Shown one piece after another: positions 841 through 59,860 of a DNA stretch of 64,000 nt. Source of the DNA: Negaprion brevirostris (lineage: Eukaryota); the NCBI GenBank assembly GCA_030324005.1, contig JARDVH010000031.1, forward strand, positions 71,062,287-71,126,286, given 5' to 3'. Positions within the stretch are counted from its first letter, which is position 1. Each line of letters starts with the position of its first letter. The position numbers and the translations under genes are program-made. The notes under the pieces were generated by a model. That model was given only the letters and a program-made list of their open reading frames with translations, was not told where the DNA came from and ran no database searches.

Positions 841-1841
841 ACGTGGAATTTTCTCATTATTTGTCAGAGTGTTAAACTCTGACTGAAAACTGGCAGTATA
901 TCTCTCTGGATGCATTGATGAGTTTTCAGAACAGATCTTGAGTCACTCTCACAAAAATAAATCTGGGGGCATGGGTTAGGCCATTAGTCTGGCAGGGCGG
1001 GGCCTGTTAGAGCCGACAAGGCTGGCTGACAGAGGCCATCTTTAAAGGGTGCTCCAATCAGCATTGGGTGAACTGCCCAACCCCCCCAATTCCTCCTCCT
1101 GCACCATCACCACGTTATCAGGGACTTCCTCTCTTGCGCAGTCATTACGGGCTTGCCCCATCGCCTCTCTGGAACAATCACCATAACAGTGCTGCTGGCA
1201 TTCCCCTGTTCACTGCTGTCTTCGGGCGGGGGGGGGGGGGGGGGGGGGGGGGGGGNNNNNNNNNNNNNNNNNNNNNNNNNNNNNNNNNNNNNNNNNNNNN
1301 NNNNNNNNNNNNNNNNNNNNNNNNNNNNNNNNNNNNNNNNNNNNNNNNNNNNNNNCCCCCCGCCCCCAATGTCAGATTTTCCCCCCTTCATGGCCAGGTT
1401 ACCCACACGTCCCCTCACTGCCAGCTCTCCCTCGTTACTGCCAAGTCACAACTTCAAAGGCCTCAGTGTCCTCCCAATACACCACACACAACAGGAACCC
1501 CGACCTCCTCCCTTGGCACTGTCCGGGCATGACCCTCTCCCACCCTCAGCGACTATATTGACTTTGGCGTCCTGGTAGGATCTCCTTGACTGTTTCCCAT
1601 CTGTATAAAGCTGTTGTGTATCTCACATAATTCAGTGAGGGGTTCAAGTGGCATGTAGTCTCTTTAATAAAATGTAAATTCATTAAAATGTATTTAACTG
1701 AAGCGCTGGAACCTCGCTGCATCACTGACGATGGGCAGGGAAAATTGGGAAATGTGATCTCGCCGGTGAGAATCTCGTTTTCTGACTCTGGTGAGTTTTG
1801 CTCACTTCTGTTCATGGAAACCTTCGACGCAAATTTGCCCC
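841..1841. mobile_element. Non-autonomous DNA transposon (Harbinger-like), degenerate
   Basis: Imperfect inverted ends (gtggaattttctc ... gcaaatttgccc) of the same type as the MITEs elsewhere in the window; GC-rich interior; G-run/C-run around a gap. Confidence 0.5.
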
Positions 1842-1849
1842 TTTAGTTT

Positions 1850-3075
1850 ACTTGTTCGTGGGATGTGGAAGTACCTGGCATGCCTTTATTGCCCATGCCT
1901 AATTGGCCTTGAGAAGGCGGTGATGACCTGTCTTCTTGAATCACTGCAGTGTGTGTAATGCAAGTAATCTCACAGTGCCAATAGGCACTGACTCCCAGGA
2001 TTTTCATGCAGTGGCAATGAAGGGGCAGTGATCCAGTTCTAAGTTAGGATGATGTGTTACTTAGAAGTGAACTTGCAGGTGGTGGTATTCCCATGTGCCT
2101 TTGTTCTGGTGTTCAGGAGGTGGTGTAGAAGGACTTTTGGTAGGTTGCTTCATTGCTCTAGTGGCTATGGTCATTGCTGACGGAGAGACTGAATGCTTAA
2201 TGTGATGAATGGGGTGTCCAACAATTGGCTGCTTTGATGATGTCAATCTTCTTGAGTTTTGAAGCTGCACTCATCGAGGAACATGAGGAGCGTTCTATCA
2301 CAGTCCTGAGTTGTGCTTTGTAATTGGTGGGTAGACTTTGGGTAGTCAGGTGGTATGATATTTGTCACAGAATATCCAGCCTTTGGCCTGCTTTTGCAGC
2401 CACAGTATTAATGTGGTTGGTTCAGTTAAACTTTTGGTTAAGGGCAACCTCCAGGAAGTTGATGATAAGGGATTTTGCAATGGTAATGTCACTGAATGTC
2501 AAAAGGAGGTGGATATCTCCTCTCTTGTTGGAGAAAGCCATTGTTTGGTATGAATGTTACTTGCCAGTTATCAGCCCAAGCCTGAATACTGTCCAGATTT
2601 TGGGCTTCATGATTTGAGGAGCTGGGAATGGAACTAAAGGCCACAATGATCAGCAAACATCTTAGTTCTGATTTTAAGTACATTGATGAAGCAATTAAAA
2701 TGGGTTGAGCCTGAGGTAACTGCTCTGAAGAATTCCTGCAGTAATATCCAGGGACTGAGATGATTGGCCTCCAACAACTCAACTTTCTTGCTTTGTCCCA
2801 GAAATGACTAGCAAAATTTCCTTTTGGTTTCCATTGACTTCAGTTTTACTGGGGCTCTGGATAGCATAAGTTGTGGTGAACTTTCCAGCCACGCACACCC
2901 CAAGACTGGAAATCCCTGTTTAAGGTCAATGGATCTTCAAATGGTCTGCTAAATTTTCCGTCCTGCCTGCTAAAATTCCCGTGGTGGGCGGGATGAGAAA
3001 ATTCCGTCAATACTGCCTTGATGTCAAAGGCAGTCACTCTCACCTCATCTCTGAGATTCAGGTTTTTGGTCCACT
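1850..3075 (-). mobile_element. CR1/L2-group LINE, 3' portion with RT remnant
   Basis: Minus-strand QNLDSIQAWADNWQVTF (RT C-terminal motif); 3' tail ttgttcgtgggatgtgg...tttattgcccat...cttgagaagg recurs many times in the window. Confidence 0.8.
2875..3008. mobile_element. MITE (Harbinger-like) nested in LINE
   Basis: Ends ggtgaactttcc ... gagaaaattccgtc; internal aggtcaatgga motif shared with the MITEs at 18861, 29897 and 40083. Confidence 0.65.
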
Positions 3076-4679
3076 CACTCCAATGAGTGAGAATAAAACA
3101 AAATAAATCATAGATGAATGCATATTGCTGCTTTTGCATAATGGGGAACTTATCAAAAGACCTCTTCATGGGGTAAAGAGGAAAGGCGACAGAGTGAAAT
3201 ACGGAATTCACAAAGTCACTTTCTTTGCAATCATTCTTAAGTTGCTCTCTAAGTTTTGAGTTCATTAACGTATGTATGGTGCGGTGACCAATTCCATGTT
3301 CCATTCATACCATTAAAGGTGATGGTCTGCTGATCACAAGGTCCTTCGCTGTGGTGAAGTCTCATTTTTAACATCGTTCCAGCAGATTATCACTGTCATA
3401 TCGCTCAAAAAGGAAATGACAACCTCACCACCGAGAAAATACATTGGCTCCATGACAGTGAGGGGATTATAAAAGGACTTTGTTCTTTCAATTGTGATGT
3501 GCCTTTGATCCCCAAATGCCACAGAGGCTAGTATCATCACGCCCCTGTTACTGGGTAGCTGCTTCCCATTCTATTCGCAGGAGTGCTTGCTTTCCTTTAT
3601 TTCCCTCTTTCAGTTTAAATAGCAAGTGCTATAAAACTGGGAAGAGTCGATCCTCAGCCTTTGTGAGTGGCCCATCTGCCACTGTACTTTATTGACTGTT
3701 AAAATTTACTCTTAAATTCATCATCGCACCCGAGGGATATGGAAATATTTTTGCACAAGAAAACCAGGAAACTGTCAAAACACAAAATATTGGAGCCGTG
3801 AAAATGCTTTACAAGACATTTTCAATAGATTGTCAAAAACATGTAATAGGATTTTTAAACCAGAATTTCTTACAGTCGATTAGTTAATTTTACAGGACTC
3901 CATTTTATATCCACCATCAACTGCAATATTAAAATTAGTGAATAAAATATACATCTACATGCTACTGATATTGTTTGAGAGTTCATGGAACTTTATTTTT
4001 ATTATTCATTGTTGATTTACTTCCCGCAGATTTAGTGTTTGTCCCTCAGCATCCCACTTTTCCCAAGGGAGCAGGCTCCCAGGTCACAACTGATGTTGCT
4101 GTGAAATCATCCAATAAAATGTGTGCAAGGACAGCCTGATTTAATCCTCCCTGCAGTTTTCCTTCCCTGTGGGAAGGTGGCTGGCCTTTGCTGGTCCCTC
4201 CCTTGACGATCCAACTGAGCTCAGGAACTCATCATGCGTGGAATTGCAGGCGTTAGTCTGAATTGTACTATTTAATGGTCGTGTGTTGGAGCTTTGATAC
4301 ATTGTCGTATCATGCCCACCGTTAATAAAAAAGAAATGTTTAGTTTCATTACATTCTCCTCCTAAATCATGGTACTTCCCGATTCCCTCATCCTGAACCA
4401 CGTTAATTTGGTAGGAAGGCTCCGAGAACAATGCCCGTTTTACTCTAAAAATAGCGTGTAACTGTGGTGTTCAAATTCTCCCTTCTCTCACAGTGTATCA
4501 CTCCCTCTGTCACTTCTTCCTTCACATGCCAACCTGCTTTGTTGAAATCATGTGTGCACTGAAGTCAGTGGTGGCTGGGGGTGAAATGTGATGGGGAAAG
4601 AACCTTAATTTCAATACCTTTGCATTGTATTTAGGCCCTCATTCACCGCAGATAGAAGGTGCTCACAACAACTATGAAG

Positions 4680-5023
4680 GGAGAGAGTGGTCTTTTGCTT
4701 ACGTCACTGGACTAGTAATCCAGAAGCTAATGCTCTAGCCATGCAGGTTACATTCTATTATGGCATCAAATTCAACTAATTAAAGAGAAAGCTGGAATTT
4801 GAAGCTAGTTTCAGTAATGTTGACCACAGAACTGCCATCAATTGTTATAAAAGCCCATTTGTTTAATTCATGGTCCCTTAGGAAGGAAATCTGCTGTTCT
4901 TACCTGGTCAGGCCTACCCGTGCCTCCAACCCCACAGCAATATGGCTAACTCTTCTCTGCTCATCTCAAGGGCAACAACTGCTGGCCAGCAATGCCCACA
5001 TCCCATGAAAAGACTTTAAAAAA
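4680..5023 (+). mobile_element. tRNA-derived SINE (SlmI/MetaSINE-like), CR1/L2-type tail
   Basis: Core ggaaggaaatctgctgttcttacctggtc...cccacagcaa; tail gctggccagcaatgcccacatcccatgaa plus A-run. Related copies at 9255, 12214, 37174 and 54123. Confidence 0.7.
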
Positions 5024-5484
5024 CTACCACTATTTCAGTCACGAGGTACTTAACAGCTTAGATGATATCAATGTTTGTCTCTGATTAGATGCATTTAGAG
5101 TGTGTTCTGGTTATACAGAAGCCTGTGGCTGATAGTTTCCAGGATAGCAGGTGACTCAAGCCCCAGTAGTATAATTAGCACCTATTCAATATTTGATTTT
5201 GTGCAATAGATGGATAAACAAATGCTTGTCTATCTCCATGTGCAAGCTTTTACATTTCCCATTTCAACTGGTGTAGAATTGATTAATATTCAATATGTAC
5301 TTCAGTGACAACACAATATGTAACTTGGCACAAAAATACTTTGATATTTTTCTTTGGCCATCAGGTTCACACAGCTGACAAGCATATCATTACTAACTAG
5401 TCAAACTGTTTTAGTCCAGTGGCAAGACAGATATAATATCGTGGGGTCTTCTTAGTTATTTCTGATCATACCAAAGCTATTATG

Positions 5485-6205
5485 TGTCAGCTTTGGCTCA
5501 GTGATAAAACTCTTGTCTCTAAATCAAAAGGTTGGCTCAATTCTCACTCCAGATATCTGAAAATTAAAGCTGACACTTCAGGGCTATACTGAAAAGCGCC
5601 ACATTGCCAGAGGTGCCAGCCTTCACAGATGAAAGGCAAAACTGAGGCCCTGCCTTTTTTTATTATTCATTCATGGGTATTGCTGGCTGGCCACCATTTA
5701 TTGCCCATCCCTAGTTGCCCTTGATGAGCTGCCTTTTTGAAATGCTGCAGTCCATGTGCCGTGGGTTGACCTACAATGCTGTTAAGGAGGGAATTCCAGC
5801 ATTTTGATGCAGTGACTGTGAAGAAACGGCTATATATTTCCAAGTCAGGATAGTGAGGGGCTTGGAGGAGAACCTGAAGGTGATGGTGTTCCCATGTATC
5901 TGTTGCCCTTGTCCTTCTAGATGGAAGTGGTCGTGGATTTCGAAGGCACTGTCTAAGGATTTTAAGTGGGTGTAAAATATTCCATTGTGTAATTTTGCAG
6001 AAGAGAAGGGAGCTTTCCCCTGCATCCTAGCAAATATTTATTCCTCAAGAAACATCACAGACTATGACTGTGGTTTGTGGGGTCCTACTGAGCACAAATT
6101 TGTAGCAGCGCTTCCAACATGACAGCAGTGAAAAATATTCTTTGTTCAAACCTTTTTAACTGACTGTACAGAGATTGAGAAAGGAGCTACATAAATGAAA
6201 TGCCT
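5485..6205 (+). mobile_element. DeuSINE (SacSINE1-like), interrupted by a LINE tail
   Basis: tRNA-like head gtcagctttggctcagtg; body aggtgcc...cagatga...aactgaggccc; Deu-domain-like gaagagaaggg...aatatttattcctc...tgtggg...gcacaaatt; tail gctacataaatg. Confidence 0.7.
5656..5965 (-). mobile_element. CR1/L2-group LINE 3' end nested in the DeuSINE
   Basis: T-run followed by attcattcatggg...catttattgcccatccctagttgccctt, homologous to 1850-2150. Confidence 0.8.
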
Positions 6206-7910
6206 TGCTGTTCTGGCCACACAGTACATAATCAAAGAACAGAGTGTGGCTCATTTTGTTCACTCTTCTGATACTTGACCTTCCAAGCAAAAGCAACTTT
6301 AAAGGTCTGAAAGGGTCGTTCAAGATTCTAAGTTAAACACGAAACTAGCAAACAGGTCAACAAGAGGCAACAGAAAGGAAGATTTAGACAAAGCTGCTTG
6401 TAAATAGTCTGTATGATACTCGTTAACATTTATTAATTTTATTGAGCAATTCAATGCCAAGCCACGTTTCTATGAATATGTTTAAATGGTAAGTAATGCA
6501 ATTTTTAAAAGCCAGGGCCCTGCATTAGTATCCACTACAAAGTCAAATGTTGTAATCAAAAAATCTTCTGTTCATTTTCAAGATAAAATCTTTGTTCTTA
6601 TGTAGCTGAACCATGGCCCTCTGAGCTCCACTTTTCTGCCTTACATCTGAGCAGTGGACATTGACCATGCAACAAAAGCTCACTTATGAAAAGTTTCTTT
6701 ATACATACAGTAATAAATAGGAGAGAAGTACCCTCCCCATTCTACACTCATATAAAGCATTCCTTGAGTCTTTCGATTAAATCCCACTCTGGCGGGGTGA
6801 CTCACGTCGTATGACATTCCAGAAAGAGAGCAATTATGCCATTGCTGAAAATTGATGTAATGGGTGCTTTTCAAGATACTTTAATAGACGTGAATGGTGT
6901 TTTGGCAGACAATTGGAAATAGCAGCAGAAATCTAATTGCATTACTGTCTACCATCTGAGGCATTATGAGGAGGGGATTGTTGTGGGATACGTACATATC
7001 CTTTTAATGTTGAACTTTAACTCTGGATCGGGAAGGAAGTCATTTGAATTATGTTGTTTAGTTTACCTACTTATAATTTTCTCTTTCAAGTAAGCTGCTT
7101 AGTTCAATTCCTTAAAGGGCCAGCTTCGTTAAAAAGCATTTTCAGATCAGCACCTCATTGCTTTATAAAAAAAGATTTAAGTTACACATTAATTGCACTT
7201 GTCAACAACATAGAAGGGGAGAATTACTCTAGCTGCTGAGGATAGCAAAGTTGTAAACACATTCCTTTTGAATGGGTTTACACTTCCATTACACTTGATG
7301 ACCAGAATATTTCTTTCTTTACTCTGCTAAAAACATGATTTTTTTTCCTCACAAGGACAGTGCTGTTATCTCTACCAATCACAATTTTCATTCCTTCACT
7401 CCTCATTCCTTTTCACAGTATTTAGTCCTTAACTTTCACTTTCAACTATTAACTCCACTTGAATATATATCTACCTTACCTTTATATGGCTGCCTAAACC
7501 CTTTTGTTACTTTCTCCTGAGATTCTGCTTGCAAAGAAATATCTGCACTCCATAGTAAGGACTTCTTCCCTTTCCAATGCTGGAACACACAGTTCCCTTT
7601 CCCACCCACCATAAGCTCTGCACCACCCTTCGTACCCATCCCCCCACTCAAAGTGGCAAAACACTCTGTTTCACATGTGCACACTTTGACAGAAGCAAAA
7701 CATTTCGGTGTTGAAAGATCTCCTGTCAATACTATTGGGGAGAATNNNNNNNNNNNNNNNNNNNNNNNNNNNNNNNNNNNNNNNNNNNNNNNNNNNNNNN
7801 NNNNNNNNNNNNNNNNNNNNNNNNNNNNNNNNNNNNNNNNNNNNNATACTATTGGGGAGAATAACAAATTGCCTTTTTGCTTACACTCCTTGTACACATA
7901 GAAAAAGTCT

Positions 7911-18825: not shown

Positions 18826-19062
18826 AATTCTGTAGAAAAGTCACACGGACTTGAAACGTTGGCTGAAATTTTACTGTCCCGCCCTCCACAAAACTGGAGT
18901 GGGCGAGGGGCAGATAATGGAAATGTCCATTGACATCGGGCAGGATTTTGTGGTTTAAGAATGATCGAGGCCGTAAAATCCTGCCCGTTAACTTCATTAC
19001 TCTCTCTCCACAGATAATACCAGACCTATTGAGCTTATCCAGCATTTTCTGTTTTCATTACA
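18826..19062 (+). mobile_element. Penelope-like terminus (family A) with hammerhead motif, split by a MITE
   Basis: CTGTAGA-aaagtcacacggactt-GAAA-c-GTT|MITE|GTT-aact...ctctctccacagat...gacctattgag...tccagcattttctgtttt. Confidence 0.75.
18861..18986. mobile_element. MITE (Harbinger-like), 126 bp, TSD GTT
   Basis: TIRs ggctgaaattttac / gtaaaatcctgccc; GTT at 18858-60 and 18987-89. Confidence 0.8.
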
Positions 19063-24554: not shown

Positions 24555-25220
24555 ATTCCCAACTATGCCAAGGAGTTCTAAAGCAGCTGCCACTTAAACT
24601 TTTTGGTTCATGGACAATGATGCTGAAACTTACCATAATATTACAGCAATAGAACTGTTAGAGTTATCTTCCTAAATAGACTCAAAGAATGTTGCGACAA
24701 AAAAGCAAATCATTTGGTCCATTGAGTTGTTTTTTTCTCCATGCACCTCTCGGATTAATTGTACCCTTTCGTTTGTTACTCTTTTTTTTTTGGAAGCGAA
24801 ATCCAAGCTGTAGAAAATATAACTACTTGGTAGCAGAACAACAATACAGGCCTAATTTTTTAGTTAACTGAGGCTTAACTATCTGAAGGATGACCTGGCT
24901 GGGTGACAGGCAATTCTGCTTTGTGCATATGTTTACAGCACCAAACACAGAAGGGCTACTGTTAGGCATGTGAATTAGATAACTTCTGGAAAATGCTTTA
25001 ATTTCCTCTGTGTGCTGCTTTTAGCTCACTAGTTAATGCCATTGATTGTAATTTGTGTCTGTGCTACTTTTAACACTGTTGGGTTAGTGACAGTGCTAAG
25101 GTAATGCAGACAATAAATGAATGTGGATGGAAGGAAATTAAACATTTTGGCTTTATGCTGTATGCTATACTGTCAAGAAACATATCCAGAATTACAAACA
25201 AAAACAGGATTTAAGTGGAT

Positions 25221-25890
25221 TAAAAGCAAAATACTGCAGATGCTGGAATCTGAAACAAAACAGAAAATGCTGGAAAATCTTAGCAAGTCTGACGGCACCT
25301 GTGGAGAGAGAATAGAGCCAATGTTTAGATTAGTTTAGTTCAACAACTTCAGAGCATGAACTCTCCCCCTCTCCCTTCACCCCCTTTCCATTTGTTTCCT
25401 TATTTTCGTCTCAGTCATCCATTTTTATCACCCTTCTTTCTCACTTCTCCATTTCTCCATTCCTGCTCTCCTTTTTGCCCCACCGCCACCCACCCTCCCA
25501 CCCTCCACCCCCCGCTTTCAGGGCAGCTGCTTTAACTACCTATACCTTTCCTTTGCCACTCACTCATTCAGATCACTTAAATAAGCACTTTCCTCAGCCT
25601 TCTTCATTCTAATTTATATTCTTTTTGGCCTATTACAGCACTGCCCCCACCCCCCTCACCTTCATAGTATAAATCTTTTCTGATTTTCTTTACTCTTAGC
25701 TCTGACGAAGGTTCATCCAGACTCAAAGCATCGACTGGAATTTGACTGGCACGCCCACCCCGGAATCGGAATTCTTCTGGGGCGGGATTTTATGAATCTT
25801 GCCCAAGCGAGGTCGGAAAATCCCAGCCATCAGCTCTACTCTCTCTCCACAGATGCTGTCAGATTTTCCAGCATTTTCTGTTTTTGATTT
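25221..25890. mobile_element. Penelope-like element (family A) with inverted terminal copies
   Basis: 25221-25355 (aaagcaaaatactgcagatgctgg...gtggagagag) is the reverse complement of 25690-25890; CTGACGA core at 25702; pyrimidine-rich interior. Inverted pseudo-LTRs are typical of Penelope elements. Confidence 0.75.
25733..25828. mobile_element. MITE (Harbinger-like), 96 bp, TSD ATC
   Basis: TIRs gactggaatttgac / ggaaaatcccagcc; ATC at 25730-32 and 25829-31. Confidence 0.8.
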
Positions 25891-26514
25891 AAATGGATTG
25901 TTCCACATATTCTGGTGAAGTTCCGTATCAGATTTTATCAATAAAAATAAACAGGTCTATTGTTAGAGCAATGACCCTGAATGGAGAGAAGCCTCTTTTG
26001 GGACACAAAAAGGAGTTTTACATTTGATATTTCCGACTAAGGAACCCATCTGATTGGAATCATTTGGATTCAGATTTCAAATTTGGCATCATTCTCTACT
26101 CTACGACTGATGATTCGCTTCTGCTGAAACCCATACAAAACATAACATTGCACCAACAATAGATCTGAATTGACTGTCAATGATATTATCCATTGAACAC
26201 TTTGTCATATTTGCATAATTTTCCCTTTTCATGATTCTATATTAACAGTATTATAAACAGATTTGAAACCCAAAGATACAGAAAAATATATGAATATGTT
26301 AATATTTTTCCATGAATGCTAGTGCCAATCATTTCTAGACTGCTGTCATACAATATCCTTATCAGGTAGAAATCCTCGTCCATGAACTTCATTGCCAAAT
26401 GCTCAAATACATACCTGTAACAATATTCTGCAAAAATCCACCTGTATTTAAATGGATTAAAGACTCCCTAAATTTCCCACAGCAATATGGAAGGGGGTGG
26501 GGTGGGGTGGGATT

Positions 26515-27000
26515 TCCCACTCCCATTTTCAGAGGGAAGCAATGGTGAAAAGATTGGAGCGTGAGTCCCAAAATGAGTTTTGTGCCAGTGGGATTTCCCC
26601 ACTCAATTGTCCGTGGTCCCTGAAAATGACGTAAGGGGAATTCCTGACTTTAGAAGTCGGGATCTCCATTTGCATTTATTTAACTATGCGTACCAGCAGT
26701 CTATTTCTGGTAGCCACCCAACACCCCCCCACCCCAACACTGAATTGGCCATCAGCCACCACGTGGAACAAGACTGGCCCCCATTACGTGCACCCAGTGT
26801 TCAGAATATGCTGGAGGTGCACAGGTGAGCACAGCCCCTGGGGTCGAGGGGGAGTGCGGATGTGGAGGAGAGGGTCATGCCCATGTTGTACCCTGGCGCT
26901 CCCCAGGCATCATGGCCCCCTGGCAATTTCAAGTTTTTATTTAACACTGGCACACCCACCAAAGTTGCTGGCCACCCTGCCAGTGTGATGTCATGGGAAA
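26515..27000. mobile_element. Non-autonomous DNA transposon remnant (Harbinger-like)
   Basis: Starts gggtgggatttccc; interior ctccatttgcat and tggcac repeats similar to 52090-52400. Confidence 0.45.
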
Positions 27001-28544
27001 CACTGCTTAATTTTTTTTTTACCAAGTTTTGAAAAATACAATAGGAAGAGCAAGGGTTGTGCAGGATGACAGGTGACCCTCTGCTTTTCCTGCCTGATGG
27101 CACACTTTGGGCAGAATTTTGGCATAGTGTAAATAAGTCCACCGTGTGATTAGATCTTCTAAAATATCATGATTCCACTTGGCCCAAATATAAGTGAAAT
27201 TACAAATTGGTCCAATTTTAAGAGTTTTATGTGATTGATAAGACAACAACTCTTTAAGTTGGGAAATGAGTTCAAAAGAGTCAGATGACCAACGTAGTAT
27301 AATTGAACTTTTCAGATCGCCATGATGATGCAGTGCTCTCCTGTTGGCATCTGAGAGCTGGGAGATGGTAGATAACAAAATAATAGGATGATAAACTGCA
27401 AAACCAACAGCAAGACAAACTGCAGCAAAAAAAGGAAATGGAAGGGGGAAGTGAGAGTAGGGCAAGAAACAAAAAAAAACTCACAAAAAGGAGAAACAGA
27501 ATATCAATGTAGAAGGAATGACAGAATGAAGGCAGGGAAACAGAAAACAACTAGAGACAGGATCCCTTGGATGAGATCCTCTCTGTACAATGTTTTCTCA
27601 TCATAAACTTGCATGGATTATCTCTCTCTCTCTTTTACTGATAGATACTTCTTCCTCTCAATAACTTTATTAAGAGTATCATGTATCAGTAATTGCTGCA
27701 AGTATAATTTGGTGCAATCACCTGATTCTTTAATTTGAAAACAGCAACAAAAATATTCGAGCATCAGTTGAGTAACTTTATGTAAAAAAGACATCAGTAA
27801 AGTGAATTCAAGTTCATATAAATCCAACAAGTTTTTTTTATCGATAGCAATTTCTGCACCATTCTGACCACCTATATATATGGTTGCATTATAAATATTA
27901 TGGATAATTCTAAAATCTAATCCATATCTTGAGGTGGAGAGAGAGCAAGTAACTTGTATAAGCAATAGCCTCATTAATAGTCTCAGTCATGGAAGATTTA
28001 AAAGGTGAAAGGCATAACCCACATGCGAAACTGTTGTCCGGACTGAAGACTGAGCCATGTCCAAATTAGGACAGCTTTATCTGCTGTGGTCTCATATACA
28101 GAAGTTTAACTAGCACTGCCTGACTGAAAATAGCTTTAAGAAACATCTGAGGGAGGTGATAATTTCATACAATTGTATTGAACTGGGCTTACGTTTATAA
28201 TTGGAAGCTTGGAAATGCCCCTGATCTCATTACTTTTGTTGCAAAGGATCTGTAGGTACTCAACAACAGCCATGTCATCAAGCATGATAAGCAGTCAATC
28301 ATAATGAAGAATTCTCACAGACAGCAAGAAAGGAAGTAAAATACATTGGTTGTCCTTCAATTTTTAAAAAAAATGCAGAAGGCAAAATAGGATTGGGCAT
28401 TCATGTTAGAAATATTATCAACAAACCTTCAGAATCATTATTTTATTATAATGAAGAAAGCTATGGCATTTGGACCTTAATGAAAAAGTTTGACAGCGTG
28501 CAAAGATCAATGATTTCTGTAGGGCCAAAGAGGCTGTAAACCAC

Positions 28545-29350: not shown

Positions 29351-29712
29351 GATGAATGGAAATCCGATTGGAGAGAAGAGCAGAACTTCAGAACATTGAC
29401 AGTTTCNNNNNNNNNNNNNNTGCAAAATCTGGGCCAATATTGTATTTGAGCAAGTCCCAAATACCTCACATCAGAAATGTCTTTTAAAATCAGTGGGTTT
29501 TTGCATTTTCTCCAAAGTTACATTTGATGATGCTCCAAATTACAATTACAGTTAAAGCTGAATTCTCTAAGTCTTTCATTTCAATGATTACTTCACACAC
29601 AGGGTCTGATCTGGTCTGAATAAAAAATATCATCAAAAATTTTCTCCTATATATAAAGTCAATTCCAAAATATTTACAAAATATTCACCACAATCTTACT
29701 AGACTTTATGCC

Positions 29713-29891
29713 AATGGGATCTTATAGTTCCACTGATGGTGTACCCCTGCCATGGGTTTCTCAGCAGCGAGGGGTGTGTTCAATGGAAAACCTCAGAGAT
29801 ATCAGTGGGACCATAACTTCCCACTGTCAGTGAGCAATGCACTGCCTCCCATTGCCATGAAACACCATGTGGAAGGAGAGGAAAATCCCAC
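29713..29891. mobile_element. MITE (Harbinger-like), older
   Basis: Ends tgggatctt ... gaaaatcccac; internal caatggaaa motif. Confidence 0.55.
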
Positions 29892-29896
29892 TGATA

Positions 29897-29986
29897 GGGG
29901 AGAATTTTCTCATTCCATGGAAAGGTCCATTGACCTCAGATGGGATTTTCCAGTTTTGGGGTGAGCGTGGCAAGAAAATCTTGCCC
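29897..29986. mobile_element. MITE (Harbinger-like), 90 bp, TSD ATA
   Basis: TIRs ggggagaattttct / agaaaatcttgccc; ATA at 29894-96 and 29987-89. Confidence 0.8.
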
Positions 29987-31449
29987 ATAATGTCAGCCTG
30001 TCTTGCTCCATTGTGGAAAGTTCCACAATACCACTCCTACATCAAGAAAATGTTCTGCCTAACGATTCTTTGTAAATATCCTGCCCCAATCAACTCCTTT
30101 CAGTTGTATTAATCCTACTCAGCTATTGTGAATGTCATTGAGAATACTTGCACTAAACTACTGCCTTTAGTGTTTAGCAATGATTGATACTAAGTTGTGA
30201 TGGCTGAGTCACAGGCAATTTGTTTTTGTGATACCTTTGGACTGCACAATTGCCTTTACATCAATAAGGTAAAGACTATTTTGTGAGACCATTCTGCAAC
30301 TGGCAGTTTCAGCTACAATTACACATTTAAAGTTAACATTTACAGTAGAATTGCAATGTATGGTATAGTGAGATGATTTATATCACATTTTACACCTGAT
30401 TTGAGAAATTATCTTATAAATCATCACAATACTTTGTCTCGACACATTGGGATTAATATTATCCCATACAAGAGCAATATTATTGAAGGCTGCTGATACT
30501 CTATATAAAAAAACTCACACCACTGAAGACAGTCCTCAGGGGAGGGAGTTGGGGGGATACTAAAGAGTCAACAGGTTACAAATGCATCATACACACAGGT
30601 CTCATTACAAGGCTCTCAGCAGTAGCACTATCTATTTTAAAAGGCTACTGGACCTTNNNNNNNNNNGTGCTACATTTTATACAGTAATGGGACATTTGCT
30701 GCAATCCATCTCATTATAAGGGACAACATGTGTGTATTTTGAAGATCACATGATAATGAAAGTGCACTGCACTTAAGATAAAGATTTAGCCATTGGGTTT
30801 TGAAAAACTATTCCTCCTCAACTGGATTAAATATTTATAAAAAGCCTAGTGATAGCAGCTGGAGGTGCTTATCTTCCTTTCGATAGGGTGACCCTGCCTT
30901 TGGAAAGGAATCAGTGATAGTCATCTTTCCTCAATTCTTTCGAATTGAGGTTGTTCCTCGGTGACAATCTGGACTATTGAAGATTGGTATCAAATCTGTT
31001 TTTTCAGTAAATTTATGAATTCTACATCTTGAATCAACCAAACCTACATTATTCCAGCATACTGTTGGGTATACTGCCAGTCTGGCTCATCAATAGGATC
31101 GGGAGGAGTCACTGGGCACTGGAATTCGTGGCTTCAGTAGCCTTGGAAGGCAATGCTCAAATGCAAAGCTCATGGAGAGGTAAGATTCTGTTCAGAGATG
31201 TGCAGTTATAGTTAGTCAAATGCCAATGTACATCCGCCCCTTGTTATTCTGCACCAAAGTTCTCTGGAAACTTTAGCTTGGTCATTTTGGAGAGAGTGGG
31301 CACTTCTACTGGGCAATCAGAAATTATATTTGTGTGTGTTCCCAGTAGGTTTAGATGATGATTCTTAAGTATGGTTTTGGATTACATGGCATGTCAAATG
31401 CTTGAGTAACCCAAAACAAAATCCAATCAGTGAACTTCAGGCAATTTGC

Positions 31450-51324: not shown

Positions 51325-51990
51325 CAAGTGGATGTGAAGGCACTGGAGAGGGTACAGAGGAGACTCACAAGACTAATTCCAGGGATAAAGGCTCTTACAT
51401 ATGAGCATAGATTGGAGAGCTGGGACTGTATTCCTTGGAAAAATGAAGGCTGAGCTGAGACTTGATAGAGGTTGTCACGTTCCTGAAGGTTAATGGACAG
51501 GTTAGGTAGTGAGAAACTGTTCCCATTCGAGACAACACCCCAGGGATAAAGGCTCTTACATATGAGCATAGATTGGAGAGCTGGGACTGTATTCTTTGGA
51601 AAAATGAAGGCTGAGCTGAGACTTGATAGAGGTTGTCAGGTTCCTGAAGGTTAATGGACAGGATAGGTAGTGAGAAACTGTTCCCATTCGAGACAACATC
51701 AAGAACTGGAGGGCACTGATTCAAAGTAATTGGCAAGAAGTAACGTGAGAAAAGCTTTTTTTCATGTAAAGGGTGGTTGGAGTCTGGAACAATCTTCCTG
51801 AGAGGATTGTGGAGGCAGTTTCGATTGAGGTGTTGAAAACGGAATTGGATTATTATCTGAAAAGAAGGAATGTGCGAAGTTATGGGGCTGAGGCAAATTA
51901 GTGGGACCTGATAGAATGCTCTTTCTGAGAGACAGTGAAGGCTGAATGGGCCAATGGCCTGTTTCTACATTGTAAAGATCCTGTGAATCT
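51325..51990 (+). mobile_element. CR1 LINE 3' end with an internal tandem duplication
   Basis: DVKALERVQRRLTRLIPG; CR1 tail at about 51940-51990. Confidence 0.85.
51379..51700 (+). repeat. 161-bp tandem duplication
   Basis: ccagggataaaggctcttacatatgag starts at 51379 and at 51540; about 4 differences between copies. Confidence 0.9.
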
Positions 51991-54460: not shown

Positions 54461-54489
54461 TGACCAGGATTTCTTTTTCAAAAGCCCAT

Positions 54490-55199: not shown

Positions 55200-56438
55200 C
55201 CTGACTGAGGGCAAAACTGCTCTTTTACATGGACAGGTGCCTCTGTGAACCATGACTATGCAAGGTGCAACCCTGCAACCCCCCCCAACTCTGTTCCCAC
55301 CCCTGCAGAAATGGTGGTGGGTGGGCTTGGAGGAAGGACATTTGGAATCAGACCTCCAGTGCCATTTCAGATACGCCAGAGACCCTCTCTGTCCAACCTT
55401 AACTCTCATGTCATTGAACTGAGATTGGGCTGGATTTATCACTCCAGGAGTGGGGAATAGATGTTGGCAGTGTTTCCAGGTCCTGAATTCTATCCCCAGT
55501 GGGAAACAATCACTGAGCTGTGATTTACCCTGGGGTGGCCAGAGACCAGGTTCACTGTCCAAATAAGGATAGCAGGCAGGATCTCAAATCTGAGGGCCAA
55601 TTGAACACCTCTCAGTTTACAAATTTTAATGGAAGGTAAATAAGCACTACAACATGGAAGTGGCCATCTCTTCATCTTTTCAAAATATTTATTTAAAAGA
55701 AAAATGATTCAGCAGCTAGGCCATGACTGTGGGACAGCAGGGATGTATGTGGTTTGGAGGCTGAGCTGGGGGAGGATTGGGGATCCTTCTACAGGGCAGC
55801 CTGTTCCAGCTCCTGCACCCTGGCATGCAGAGAGCGTCTATAGGCCTGCTTGAAGTTCTGGCCCACTAGGCTGGGTGGCATGGTGGCACAGTGGTCAGCA
55901 CCGCTGCCTAACGGCGCCCAGGACTCAGGTTTGATTCCCGACTTGGGTCACTGTTTGTGTGGAGTTTATATGCTTCTCCCTGTGTCTGTGTGGGTTTCCT
56001 CAGGGTGCTCTGCTTTCCTCCCACAGTCCAAAAGACTTGCTGGTTAGGTGCATTCTCCCTCAGGGTACATGAAAAGGCACGGAGTGTAGTATCTAGGGGA
56101 TTTTCACAATAGAATTATTGCAGTGTTATTTTACATGTACTTGTGACCAATAAATAAACTTTACCTTATTTTTACCATTGGGTTCCTACCTTCTGGCATT
56201 CAAACTGGCCCCAAACCCATGCAGGAACCTGGAGGATGCATGGAAAATTCCATTTGACTTCCTTGAGTTGGCCTCAATTAGGCTGTTAATGAGTCTGATT
56301 GGTCACATGTCACATGAGGGCACCTAACTATGCCAGCCCCCAATCAGAGGTGGGTCAGAGATAGGAAAGCCACATATTGGCCAGTTTGAGCCCCATCCGC
56401 CTCTGACCCTGGCCCTGGCAGGGGCTGAAAATCCAGCC
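55200..56438. mobile_element. Long Harbinger-like non-autonomous element (left end unresolved)
   Basis: Right TIR ctgaaaatccagcc; GC-rich interior like 32320; interrupted by a V-SINE. Confidence 0.5.
55873..56165 (+). mobile_element. V-SINE, alternative-tail subfamily
   Basis: tggcacagtgg A box; V-domain; tail ttgcagtgtt...acttgtgaccaataaataaacttt. Confidence 0.85.
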
Positions 56439-56554
56439 ATTAGACTTATTTCTCTTTCCACAGATGCTATCTGGCATTTTCTCCATTGTTAAAAGAAAAC
56501 TTGCATTTATATAGTGCCTTTCATGACAACAGAACACTCACAGATAATGATATA

Positions 56555-56699
56555 GAAGCAAAATACTGCAGGTGCTGGTAAATCTGAAACAAAAAAAACA
56601 GAAAGTGCTGGAAGTACTCAGTGGGTCTGGCAGCATGCATGGGCTGGAGAGAAAAACAGTTTTGAGTTGAATGTGATTCTTCTACAGCCTTGAAATGTT
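56555..56699. mobile_element. Penelope-like terminus (family A), inverted pair with deleted middle
   Basis: agcaaaatactgcaggtgctgg...gggtctggcagcat, then cttGAAAtGTT from the opposite-orientation copy. Confidence 0.65.
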
Positions 56700-56775
56700 A
56701 GGTGGGATTTTCTAGCTGCGATTGCCCGAAAATCCCGCCCGAGGCCAACGGACCTTTGCATGGTCTGTGTCCTGT
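56700..56775. mobile_element. MITE (Harbinger-like), left half
   Basis: aggtgggattttc TIR; aaatcccgcccgaggccaacggacc is the reverse complement of the 40083 body. Confidence 0.7.
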
Positions 56776-56782
56776 CTGCTAT

Positions 56783-56898
56783 GATTTGCACATTCTCCTC
56801 ATGTCTCCGTGGGTTTCCTCCGGGTGCTCTGGTTTCCTCCCACAGTCCAAAGATATGCGAGTTAGGTTGATTGGCCATGCTAAAATTGCCCCTTAGTG
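56783..56898 (+). mobile_element. HE1 V-SINE middle part
   Basis: gtgggtttcctccgggtgctctggtttcctcccacagtccaaagat. Confidence 0.8.
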
Positions 56899-59394: not shown

Positions 59395-59860
59395 ATTACA
59401 TAGAAACATGTAGAATCTTACAGCAAAGAGACATGTTTTTCAATCCAACATATTGATGCCAGTGTTTATGCTTCATACTAGCCTCCTCCCATCTTACTAC
59501 ATCTCACCATTTCAATATAACCTTTTATTCCTTCCTCCCCCATGAACTTATCTGGCTTCCCCTTAAATGCTATTTCTCTCAACTACTCTATGTGATAGTG
59601 CTTTCCATAGTCTCACCAATGTCTGGGCGAAAGTGCTCCTCCTGAATTCTTTAATAGTTTTAATAGTGGCTATTTTACATTGATAGCTACTGGTGTTGGA
59701 CTCTCTCACGTCTCTACATCTACCTTACCAAACCCATTCACAATATTACAGACCTCTATCAGGTTACCTCTCAGTCTCTTTTCACTACAAAAGAGACTGA
59801 GAGGTAACTTCAAAAGATTGCTTCAATCTTTCCTGATACCGTTATCCTCTCATTTCTAAT
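59395..59860 (-). mobile_element. Old CR1 LINE 3' end
   Basis: catagaa tail; collinear with 22650; gacctctatcaggttacctctcag encodes LRGxLIEV. Confidence 0.7.

What the first reader, a model, noticed from the sequence alone, without database searches (positions are those of the whole stretch)
25698..25840. Second MITE at the hammerhead triplet, with a different host variant and a different TSD
Seen: agct-CTGACGA-aggttcatccagactc-aaag-c-ATC | 96-bp MITE | ATC-agct. ATC is the GTC triplet after CpG-type decay, and stem I agct/agct flanks it. Host variant, TSD and MITE length all differ from 18861, which argues for an independent event. The inverted partner terminus of the same element (about 25315-25355) has no insert, so the MITE arrived after integration.
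Basis: partly seen in the sequence, partly recalled or inferred. Interest (0 to 1): 0.7.

Follow-up and report, generated by a model that had tools for sequence, protein, structure and literature searches.

The report
Mini-transposons repeatedly hitting retroelement ribozyme site
A small cut-and-paste jumping element landed exactly on the cutting site of a decayed self-cleaving RNA motif inside another jumping element, and the same position was hit two or three separate times in this stretch of animal DNA, most likely because the inserting enzyme prefers that DNA sequence.

Summary
The insert is real: 96 bp at 25733-25828, with 12-bp inverted ends and an ATC duplication that coincides with the cleavage triplet of a decayed minimal hammerhead. 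The host is a 664-bp Penelope-type stub with inverted ends and its own 14-bp target duplication. Its partner end is empty, so the MITE came later.

The refutation test was not met. In four related runs the host end is hugely abundant, but the middle of the 96-bp insert lies in only 0-2 contigs. One 183-nt contig carries the filled site; no empty orthologue was seen.

The length argument is weak: this MITE is the 18861/40083 family less a 30-bp deletion. Independence rests on each duplication matching its own host variant.

A probable third hit lies at 55427-56438, so 3 of 7 two-ended MITEs sit on this triplet, which chance or a 3-bp preference cannot explain. The four other sites share a symmetric A at -5 (7 of 8 half-sites). 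Best reading: a PHIS/Harbinger-like MITE with an extended DNA target preference, for which hammerhead cores are abundant hotspots. Genome-wide proof is lacking.

The parts
25208..25221 (+). Left copy of the host's 14-bp target-site duplication
   Evidence: 13 of 14 identical to 25886-25899; 7 of 3000 random pairs reach 14; family loose ends cluster at 25221-25223
25222..25358 (-). Inverted partner terminus of the host (tail plus scrambled hammerhead); empty triplet at 25320-25322
   Evidence: Inverted repeats I1 and I2; 30 of 35 identical to the other end; tail profile hit
25356..25697 (+). Pyrimidine-rich (76%) non-coding middle of the host
   Evidence: no Pfam match for the frame at 25334-25609
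25698..25729 (+). 5-prime part of the decayed minimal hammerhead: stem I strand, CUGACGA box, stem II, and a GAAAC box that has lost G12 and A15.1
   Evidence: compared with the family loose-end consensus and the min-HHR description (PMC4209133)
25730..25732 (+). Left TSD copy (ATC), the NUH cleavage triplet
25733..25828 (+). 96-bp MITE with 12-bp imperfect TIRs; a 30-bp internal-deletion form of the 126-bp family
25829..25831 (+). Right TSD copy (ATC)
25832..25885 (+). 3-prime stem I strand and host tail, with a 10-bp deletion relative to the partner end
   Evidence: alignment
25886..25899 (+). Right copy of the host's 14-bp target-site duplication
18858..18989 (+). First hit at the same triplet: 126-bp MITE 18861-18986, TSD GTT/GTT, in another host variant
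55424..56441 (+). Probable third hit: element 55427-56438, TSD ATT/ATT, holding a SINE-like insert at about 55873-56163, followed in register by a host tail
   Evidence: The right junction is clear. The left hammerhead half is degenerate (p 0.014), and the two ends are alike only in the TIR

Best explanation
Two dead mobile elements are nested, and the position reflects DNA sequence preference. (1, shown) A short Penelope-type copy integrated once, with inverted ends and a 14-bp duplication. (2, shown) A MITE later inserted into one end and duplicated the three bases of the hammerhead cleavage triplet, the footprint of a cut-and-paste transposase with a 3-nt stagger. (3, shown within the window) The same position was used in other host variants at 18861 and probably 55427. 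(4, inferred) The transposase is PHIS/Harbinger-like and reads a longer, roughly symmetric DNA target of 11 bp or more, centred on the duplicated A/T. The hammerhead core fits this target well, is semi-palindromic for ribozyme reasons, and was supplied in very many fresh copies while CpG decay erased similar words elsewhere. (5, inferred) The 30-bp deletion and the CpG changes are later or rare decay, and nothing here functions now.
For: 3 of 7 two-ended MITEs and 3 of 5 assessable host triplets coincide. The chance of 3 or more is about 1e-11 to 1e-9 for uniform insertion, 3e-9 for a triplet-level preference and 6e-4 for 6-8-bp motifs, but 0.5-0.7 for motifs as rare as 10-15 sites per window. 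Four MITEs sit outside hammerheads (2873, 29897, 40083, 54462), so the family moves freely. These sites have A at -5 in 7 of 8 half-sites (P 0.001 before correcting for 8 positions), as do 4 of 6 half-sites at hammerheads. A one-ended copy at 56700 follows a core-like word (p 0.0013). Precedents: Harbinger3_DR has a 15-bp palindromic target (passage in PMC3016246), and Dada reads primary sequence in multicopy RNA genes (PMC8869645). The insert's middle is near single-copy in relatives.
Against: The sample is 7 events in 61 kb. The motif was fitted after the fact, and at -8, -4 and -3 the hammerhead and non-hammerhead sites disagree. A motif loose enough to cover all sites (1391-6246 places) still leaves P at 2e-6 to 2e-8, and a 79-site motif leaves 0.006, so the shared motif I can show does not itself account for the enrichment. 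No transposase was found in 49 of 106 frames scanned. The TSDs are not the TWA, ANT, CWG or TNA types listed for PHIS groups. The third case has a weak left half, with p 0.014 against 0.04 and 0.048 for two non-host flanks.
Confidence: 0.62

Rival explanations
1. Dedicated targeting: the MITE family has specialised on the hammerhead cleavage site of Penelope-type ends as a harmless multicopy landing site, as Dada has on tRNA and snRNA genes. A TIR beginning GGCT could replace the 3-prime stem I strand, leaving a ribozyme that cuts exactly at the MITE boundary.
For: All three hits are at the same nucleotide and none lies elsewhere in the host ends. The demonstrable short motif does not explain the enrichment. 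The TIR of the 25733 and 18861 elements starts like the host's own 3-prime stem strand in the partner end.
Against: 4 of 7 two-ended copies are not at hammerheads. Empty sites are plentiful in relatives: 236-690 records per run continue through the triplet into the core at 25326. The 55427 TIR starts GGGC, which would not restore stem I. This copy's core is dead.
Confidence: 0.17
2. One ancient insertion was spread by retrotransposition of a MITE-bearing host, and the copies then diverged.
For: The 25733 and 18861 MITEs are one family in the same orientation, 63 of 96 aligned bases identical with a single 30-bp gap. Two contigs, not one, cover 25776 in run X6.
Against: Both TSD copies differ in step with the host variant. 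The partner end of the same integration is empty. Cover at 25776 is 2, 0, 0 and 1 contigs. The 55427 element differs in size and TIR.
Confidence: 0.1
3. Local coincidence or ascertainment: both repeats are very abundant, and a generic preference (AT-rich, bendable DNA, a 3-bp word) plus the selection of a striking window gives the pattern.
For: There is one window, chosen for the pattern. The third case is partly degenerate, and MITE boundaries at 2873 are uncertain (TSD 1 of 3 alike).
Against: The P values stay at or below 6e-4 for motifs with 270 or more sites; the third hit was found after the finding was posed.
Confidence: 0.08
4. RNA-level capture: MITE RNA was joined at the ribozyme cut or gained by template jumping during reverse transcription.
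For: The insert begins exactly 3-prime of the H of the triplet, where the ribozyme cuts (numbering from PMC4209133).
Against: The triplet is duplicated and the MITE has both TIRs complete, the same footprint as at non-host sites; ligation at the cut would not duplicate it.
Confidence: 0.03

Closest known systems
PIF/Harbinger and the other PHIS groups (PMC4482050, passages; PMC9179366, passages)
   Same: 3-bp TSD, short TIRs that begin with G, non-autonomous short copies; PIF-Harbinger is reported in the whale shark genome (PMC8455134, passage).
   Different: The TSDs here (GTT, ATC, ATT, ATA, ATG, AAT/CAT) do not follow TWA, ANT, CWG or TNA as a rule; no autonomous partner was seen.
Zebrafish Harbinger3_DR (seen only through a passage of PMC3016246; the primary paper was not read)
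   Same: Extended palindromic target around a 3-bp TSD with a central A/T; A at -5 and T at +5 are shared.
   Different: Its TSD is CWG and its inner bases differ; no tie to Penelope or ribozymes appears in the passage.
Dada transposons targeting multicopy small RNA genes (PMC8869645, passages)
   Same: Repeated insertion at one position of a multicopy structured-RNA sequence, explained by primary-sequence recognition, with stray insertions elsewhere.
   Different: Dada is another superfamily (6-bp TSDs for the tRNA-targeting types), and its targets are host genes, not the ribozyme of a retroelement.
Minimal hammerheads in Penelope-like element pLTRs (PMC4209133, parts 1-2 of 4; PMC3846280 and PMC8557442, passages)
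   Same: CUGANGA and GAAA boxes, an extra base after position 9, the G10.1-C11.1 pair, palindromic 15.2-16.2 with no helix III, short helix I, pairs on opposite strands 100-700 bp apart, inverted ends with a TSD.
   Different: This copy has no ORF and a dead core, and no MITE insertion at the site was seen in the text read.

Membership tests
MITE (non-autonomous TIR transposon) | Short, non-coding, TIRs, TSD, dispersed relatives | tested here: met
   96 bp, 12-bp TIRs, ATC/ATC; relatives at 18861, 29897, 40083, 2873, 56700 and 38134
PIF/Harbinger | 3-bp TSD | tested here: met
   Exact in 5 of 7 two-ended copies, 2 of 3 alike in one and 1 of 3 in another
PIF/Harbinger | TSD of type TWA (PMC4482050) | tested here: not met
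   0 of 7
PIF/Harbinger | TIR under 60 bp beginning with A or G | tested here: met
PIF/Harbinger | Autonomous partner with DDE transposase and Myb/SANT ORFs sharing the TIR | tested here: inconclusive
   No such family in 49 of 106 window frames scanned; no genome held
Pangu / NuwaI / NuwaII | TSD ANT, CWG or TNA respectively | tested here: not met
   Only ATT (55427) and one copy at 54462 fit ANT; none fits CWG or TNA on the strand read
Harbinger3_DR-type site-specific Harbinger | Extended palindromic target consensus | tested here: inconclusive
   A at -5 in 12 of 15 half-sites and 7 of 8 outside hammerheads; other positions mixed
Penelope-like element (host) | Minimal hammerhead in the terminal repeat | tested here: met
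   Family consensus from related contigs has the intact CUGANGA box and stem II; this copy is decayed
Penelope-like element (host) | Direct or inverted pLTR arrangement, with a TSD in some inserts | tested here: met
   PMC3846280 passages
Penelope-like element (host) | RT plus GIY-YIG ORF in the family's master element | not testable with these tools
   This 664-bp copy has no ORF match; no genome or long related locus could be fetched
Active hammerhead ribozyme (this copy) | Invariant core including G12 and A15.1 | tested here: not met
   The window reads AAAGC where GAAAC is needed; no Rfam hit

The most novel reading that the evidence does not exclude
A family of 3-bp-TSD MITEs has specialised, genome-wide, on the cleavage triplet of Penelope-type hammerheads: a DNA transposon that uses another element's ribozyme as its multicopy landing site. 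In some subfamilies the TIR would replace stem I, so that the ribozyme still cuts precisely at the MITE's 5-prime end.
Probability: 0.17. Interest if true: 0.72.

Novelty: new variant of a known kind. Interest (0 to 1): 0.42.

Why it matters
Sequence-specific DNA transposons are few in eukaryotes. A short-TIR, 3-bp-TSD family whose best target is the conserved core of another element's ribozyme would add a targeting specificity that can be read directly from thousands of genomic copies. It would also show one element disabling or exploiting another, and give dated presence/absence markers. If it is only a hotspot from a loose motif, it is a neat but ordinary nesting of two dead repeats.

Tried and rejected
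No whole genome is held, so no genome-wide count was possible. Scans for the host tail found nothing in viral, metagenome and prokaryote collections. A shorter pattern gave 13 loci; 7 of them matched the window, none beyond 21-37 bases around the pattern, so all were dropped as chance. Rfam found no hammerhead. Folding the insert as DNA was unremarkable (z -1.28), as was the hammerhead half as RNA (z 0.15). The idea that the two ends of 55427-56438 share long inverted arms was rejected (score 22, shuffle mean 18.4). In one search one reference half was out of register by 2; the test was redone, where the 25.3 row is out by 1. I recall the minus-strand frames around 40083 as resembling the end of a Penelope GIY-YIG domain; Pfam and the ESM atlas (best 0.79) gave no support, so it stays a lead. 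Holes over the insert in runs X7 and X19 prove nothing. A 4-bp duplication (with the preceding C) was considered and rejected, because the TIRs are symmetric only with a 3-bp TSD. Earlier-finding look-ups by place and sequence were empty.

Full report
Observation. A 96-bp insert at 25733-25828 has 12-bp inverted ends (9 of 12 alike) and is flanked by ATC at 25730-25732 and 25829-25831. Upstream lie a stem I strand, the CUGACGA box and a stem II; downstream lie AGCT and a tail. A 3-bp match at the ends has a chance of about 0.017. The insert also belongs to a repeat family: a profile of four copies finds further copies at 2873-3008, 56700-56770 and 38134-38205. The window is vertebrate-like (CpG observed/expected 0.25). 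That these repeats are typical of sharks is my recollection; no call names the organism.

The host. The stretch 25222-25885 has inverted ends that are identical at 30 of 35 bases from the triplet on. It is bounded by a 14-bp direct repeat with one mismatch at 25208 and 25886, which 7 of 3000 random flank pairs reach. The two ends are therefore one integration, an arrangement described for Penelope-like elements (PMC3846280 and PMC8557442, passages). Contigs of four related runs supply the family consensus beyond 25326 (236-690 records per run). It has the CUGANGA box, one extra base, and a G10.1-C11.1-closed stem II, which fit the minimal hammerhead of PMC4209133 (parts 1-2 of 4 read). This copy has lost G12 and A15.1, so it is dead whatever the MITE did; neither the strict pattern nor Rfam finds it. 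The partner's triplet at 25320-25322 is uninterrupted, although the middle of its core is scrambled. The difference between the two ends (ATC then AGCT, against ATT then GGCT) is what two different decays of one CpG would give, which fits a common template (inference).

Independence from 18861. The 96-bp element aligns with the 126-bp MITE at 18861 at 63 of 96 bases with one 30-bp gap, in the same orientation, and with the copy at 40083 at 67 of 95. With the TIRs removed, the match to 40083 exceeds all 500 shuffles; the match to 18861 (22, shuffle maximum 26) does not. Length is therefore no argument for a different element. The argument that holds is that each duplication equals its own host variant's triplet, and that the partner end is empty.

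Four of 22 listed runs were laid (X6 and X19 were read only in part, about 96 and 79 in 100). Summed depth over the host tail is four to five orders of magnitude above the flanks; the tool warns that this is no copy number. At 25776, in the distinctive middle of the insert, cover is 2 contigs in X6, 0 in X7, 0 in X19 and 1 in X4. Joints that skip the insert occur in all four runs (5-8 contigs for 25727 to 25840). So many dispersed copies with this insert were not seen, although contigs drop rare variants. One X6 record of 183 nt, at depth 18.4 against 13.8-15.1 in the flanks, runs ungapped from 25701 to 25883 with 26 differences. About 10 of these would be expected if that species keeps the 10-bp tail segment deleted here, leaving a divergence like the flank's (86 in about 930). 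It is probably the filled orthologue, but it does not reach unique flank. No empty orthologue was seen. 1014 joints and 2298 loose ends were not shown, so the filled fraction cannot be computed.

Recurrence. A right TIR at 56438 is followed by ATT and an in-register host tail. A left TIR at 55427 follows ATT and a degenerate hammerhead half (p 0.014, against 0.04 and 0.048 for two non-host flanks). The two ends are alike only in the TIR. I count this as a probable third hit. Of 5 assessable host triplets, 3 are filled (18858, 25730, 55424) and 2 are empty (25320, 29278). Two further tails were left out: one has the triplet deleted (56660) and one lacks the region (52034). Of 7 two-ended MITEs, 3 sit on the triplet and 4 do not (2873, 29897, 40083, 54462). 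One-ended copies at 56700 and 38134 were not counted; 56700 follows a core-like word (p 0.0013). Three or more hits have P of about 1e-11 to 1e-9 under uniform insertion, 3e-9 under a triplet preference and 6e-4 under 6-8-bp motifs, but are expected if the target is as rare as 10-15 sites per window.

Mechanism. The duplicated triplet and complete TIRs are the footprint of cut-and-paste transposition, not of RNA capture. The sites outside hammerheads have A at -5 in 7 of 8 half-sites (P 0.001, uncorrected for 8 positions; the one miss is at the uncertain 2873 copy), and hammerhead sites in 4 of 6. This points to a symmetric DNA target longer than the TSD, as known for Harbinger3_DR (PMC3016246, passage) and as argued for Dada (PMC8869645, passages). 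Against this reading, other positions disagree, and motifs broad enough to cover all sites leave the enrichment unexplained (P 2e-8 to 6e-3). These counts use today's decayed sequence, which understates how dominant fresh CpG-containing cores once were (inference). I put sequence preference at 0.62, dedicated targeting at 0.17, spread of one filled host at 0.10, coincidence at 0.08 and RNA capture at 0.03.

Membership and novelty. The insert is a MITE and works like a PHIS/Harbinger element (3-bp TSD, G-starting short TIR). It fails the TWA, ANT, CWG and TNA rules of PMC4482050 (passages), and no transposase was found in 49 of 106 frames, so I do not file it in a named group. The host behaves like a Penelope pLTR stub, but its ORF could not be tested. 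Searches combined these topics and listed no paper on MITEs at Penelope hammerheads; searches gave background. Passages of bioRxiv 10.64898/2026.07.22.740005, PMC9179366, PMC11167929, PMC8151067 and PMC8455134 did not mention it. No supplements were read. Those, subscription journals and Repbase or Dfam notes may hold the association.

Verdict. The likeliest cause is a known kind of DNA target preference meeting an abundant repeat. It has no present function. Interest 0.42; a genome-wide count would settle it.

Noticed in passing
window 55424-56441: Probable third MITE-family element on the hammerhead triplet (TSD ATT), about 1012 bp, with a SINE-like repeat at about 55873-56163 inside it.
   Followed up: partly
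window 56553-56790: A minus-strand host end with its triplet deleted abuts a plus-strand core-like word followed by GTT and a MITE end at 56700. A SINE-like repeat and an N gap hide the other end; possibly a fourth hit.
   Followed up: partly
window 40019-40250: The MITE at 40083-40209 (TSD ATG) interrupts minus-strand frames that I recall as resembling the end of a Penelope endonuclease; Pfam and the atlas gave no support.
   Followed up: partly
window 29712-29989: The 90-bp MITE at 29897 abuts a TIR-like end at 29882-29893 that has an inverted counterpart at 29712-29723: a possible tandem or nested MITE pair.
   Followed up: no
window 26505-27120: GC-rich, moderately repeated stretch with TIR-like words at 26505 and 27109; raised depth in all four runs; ends not resolved.
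   Followed up: no
window 59746-59821: Near-perfect hairpin of about 76 bases (weak mir-873 hit, 34.8 bits against a gathering score of 95); more likely a small inverted-repeat element.
   Followed up: no
window 46590-46895: Reverse transcriptase fragment (RVT_1, E 3e-4, below the cut-off), a decayed retroelement.
   Followed up: no
window 51379-51698: Tandem duplication of about 160 bp at 98% identity; recent, or an assembly effect.
   Followed up: no
joints at 25321-25326: Many related contigs join the host tail to the hammerhead start with short or no middles, so head-to-head inverted stubs are common in this family.
   Followed up: no
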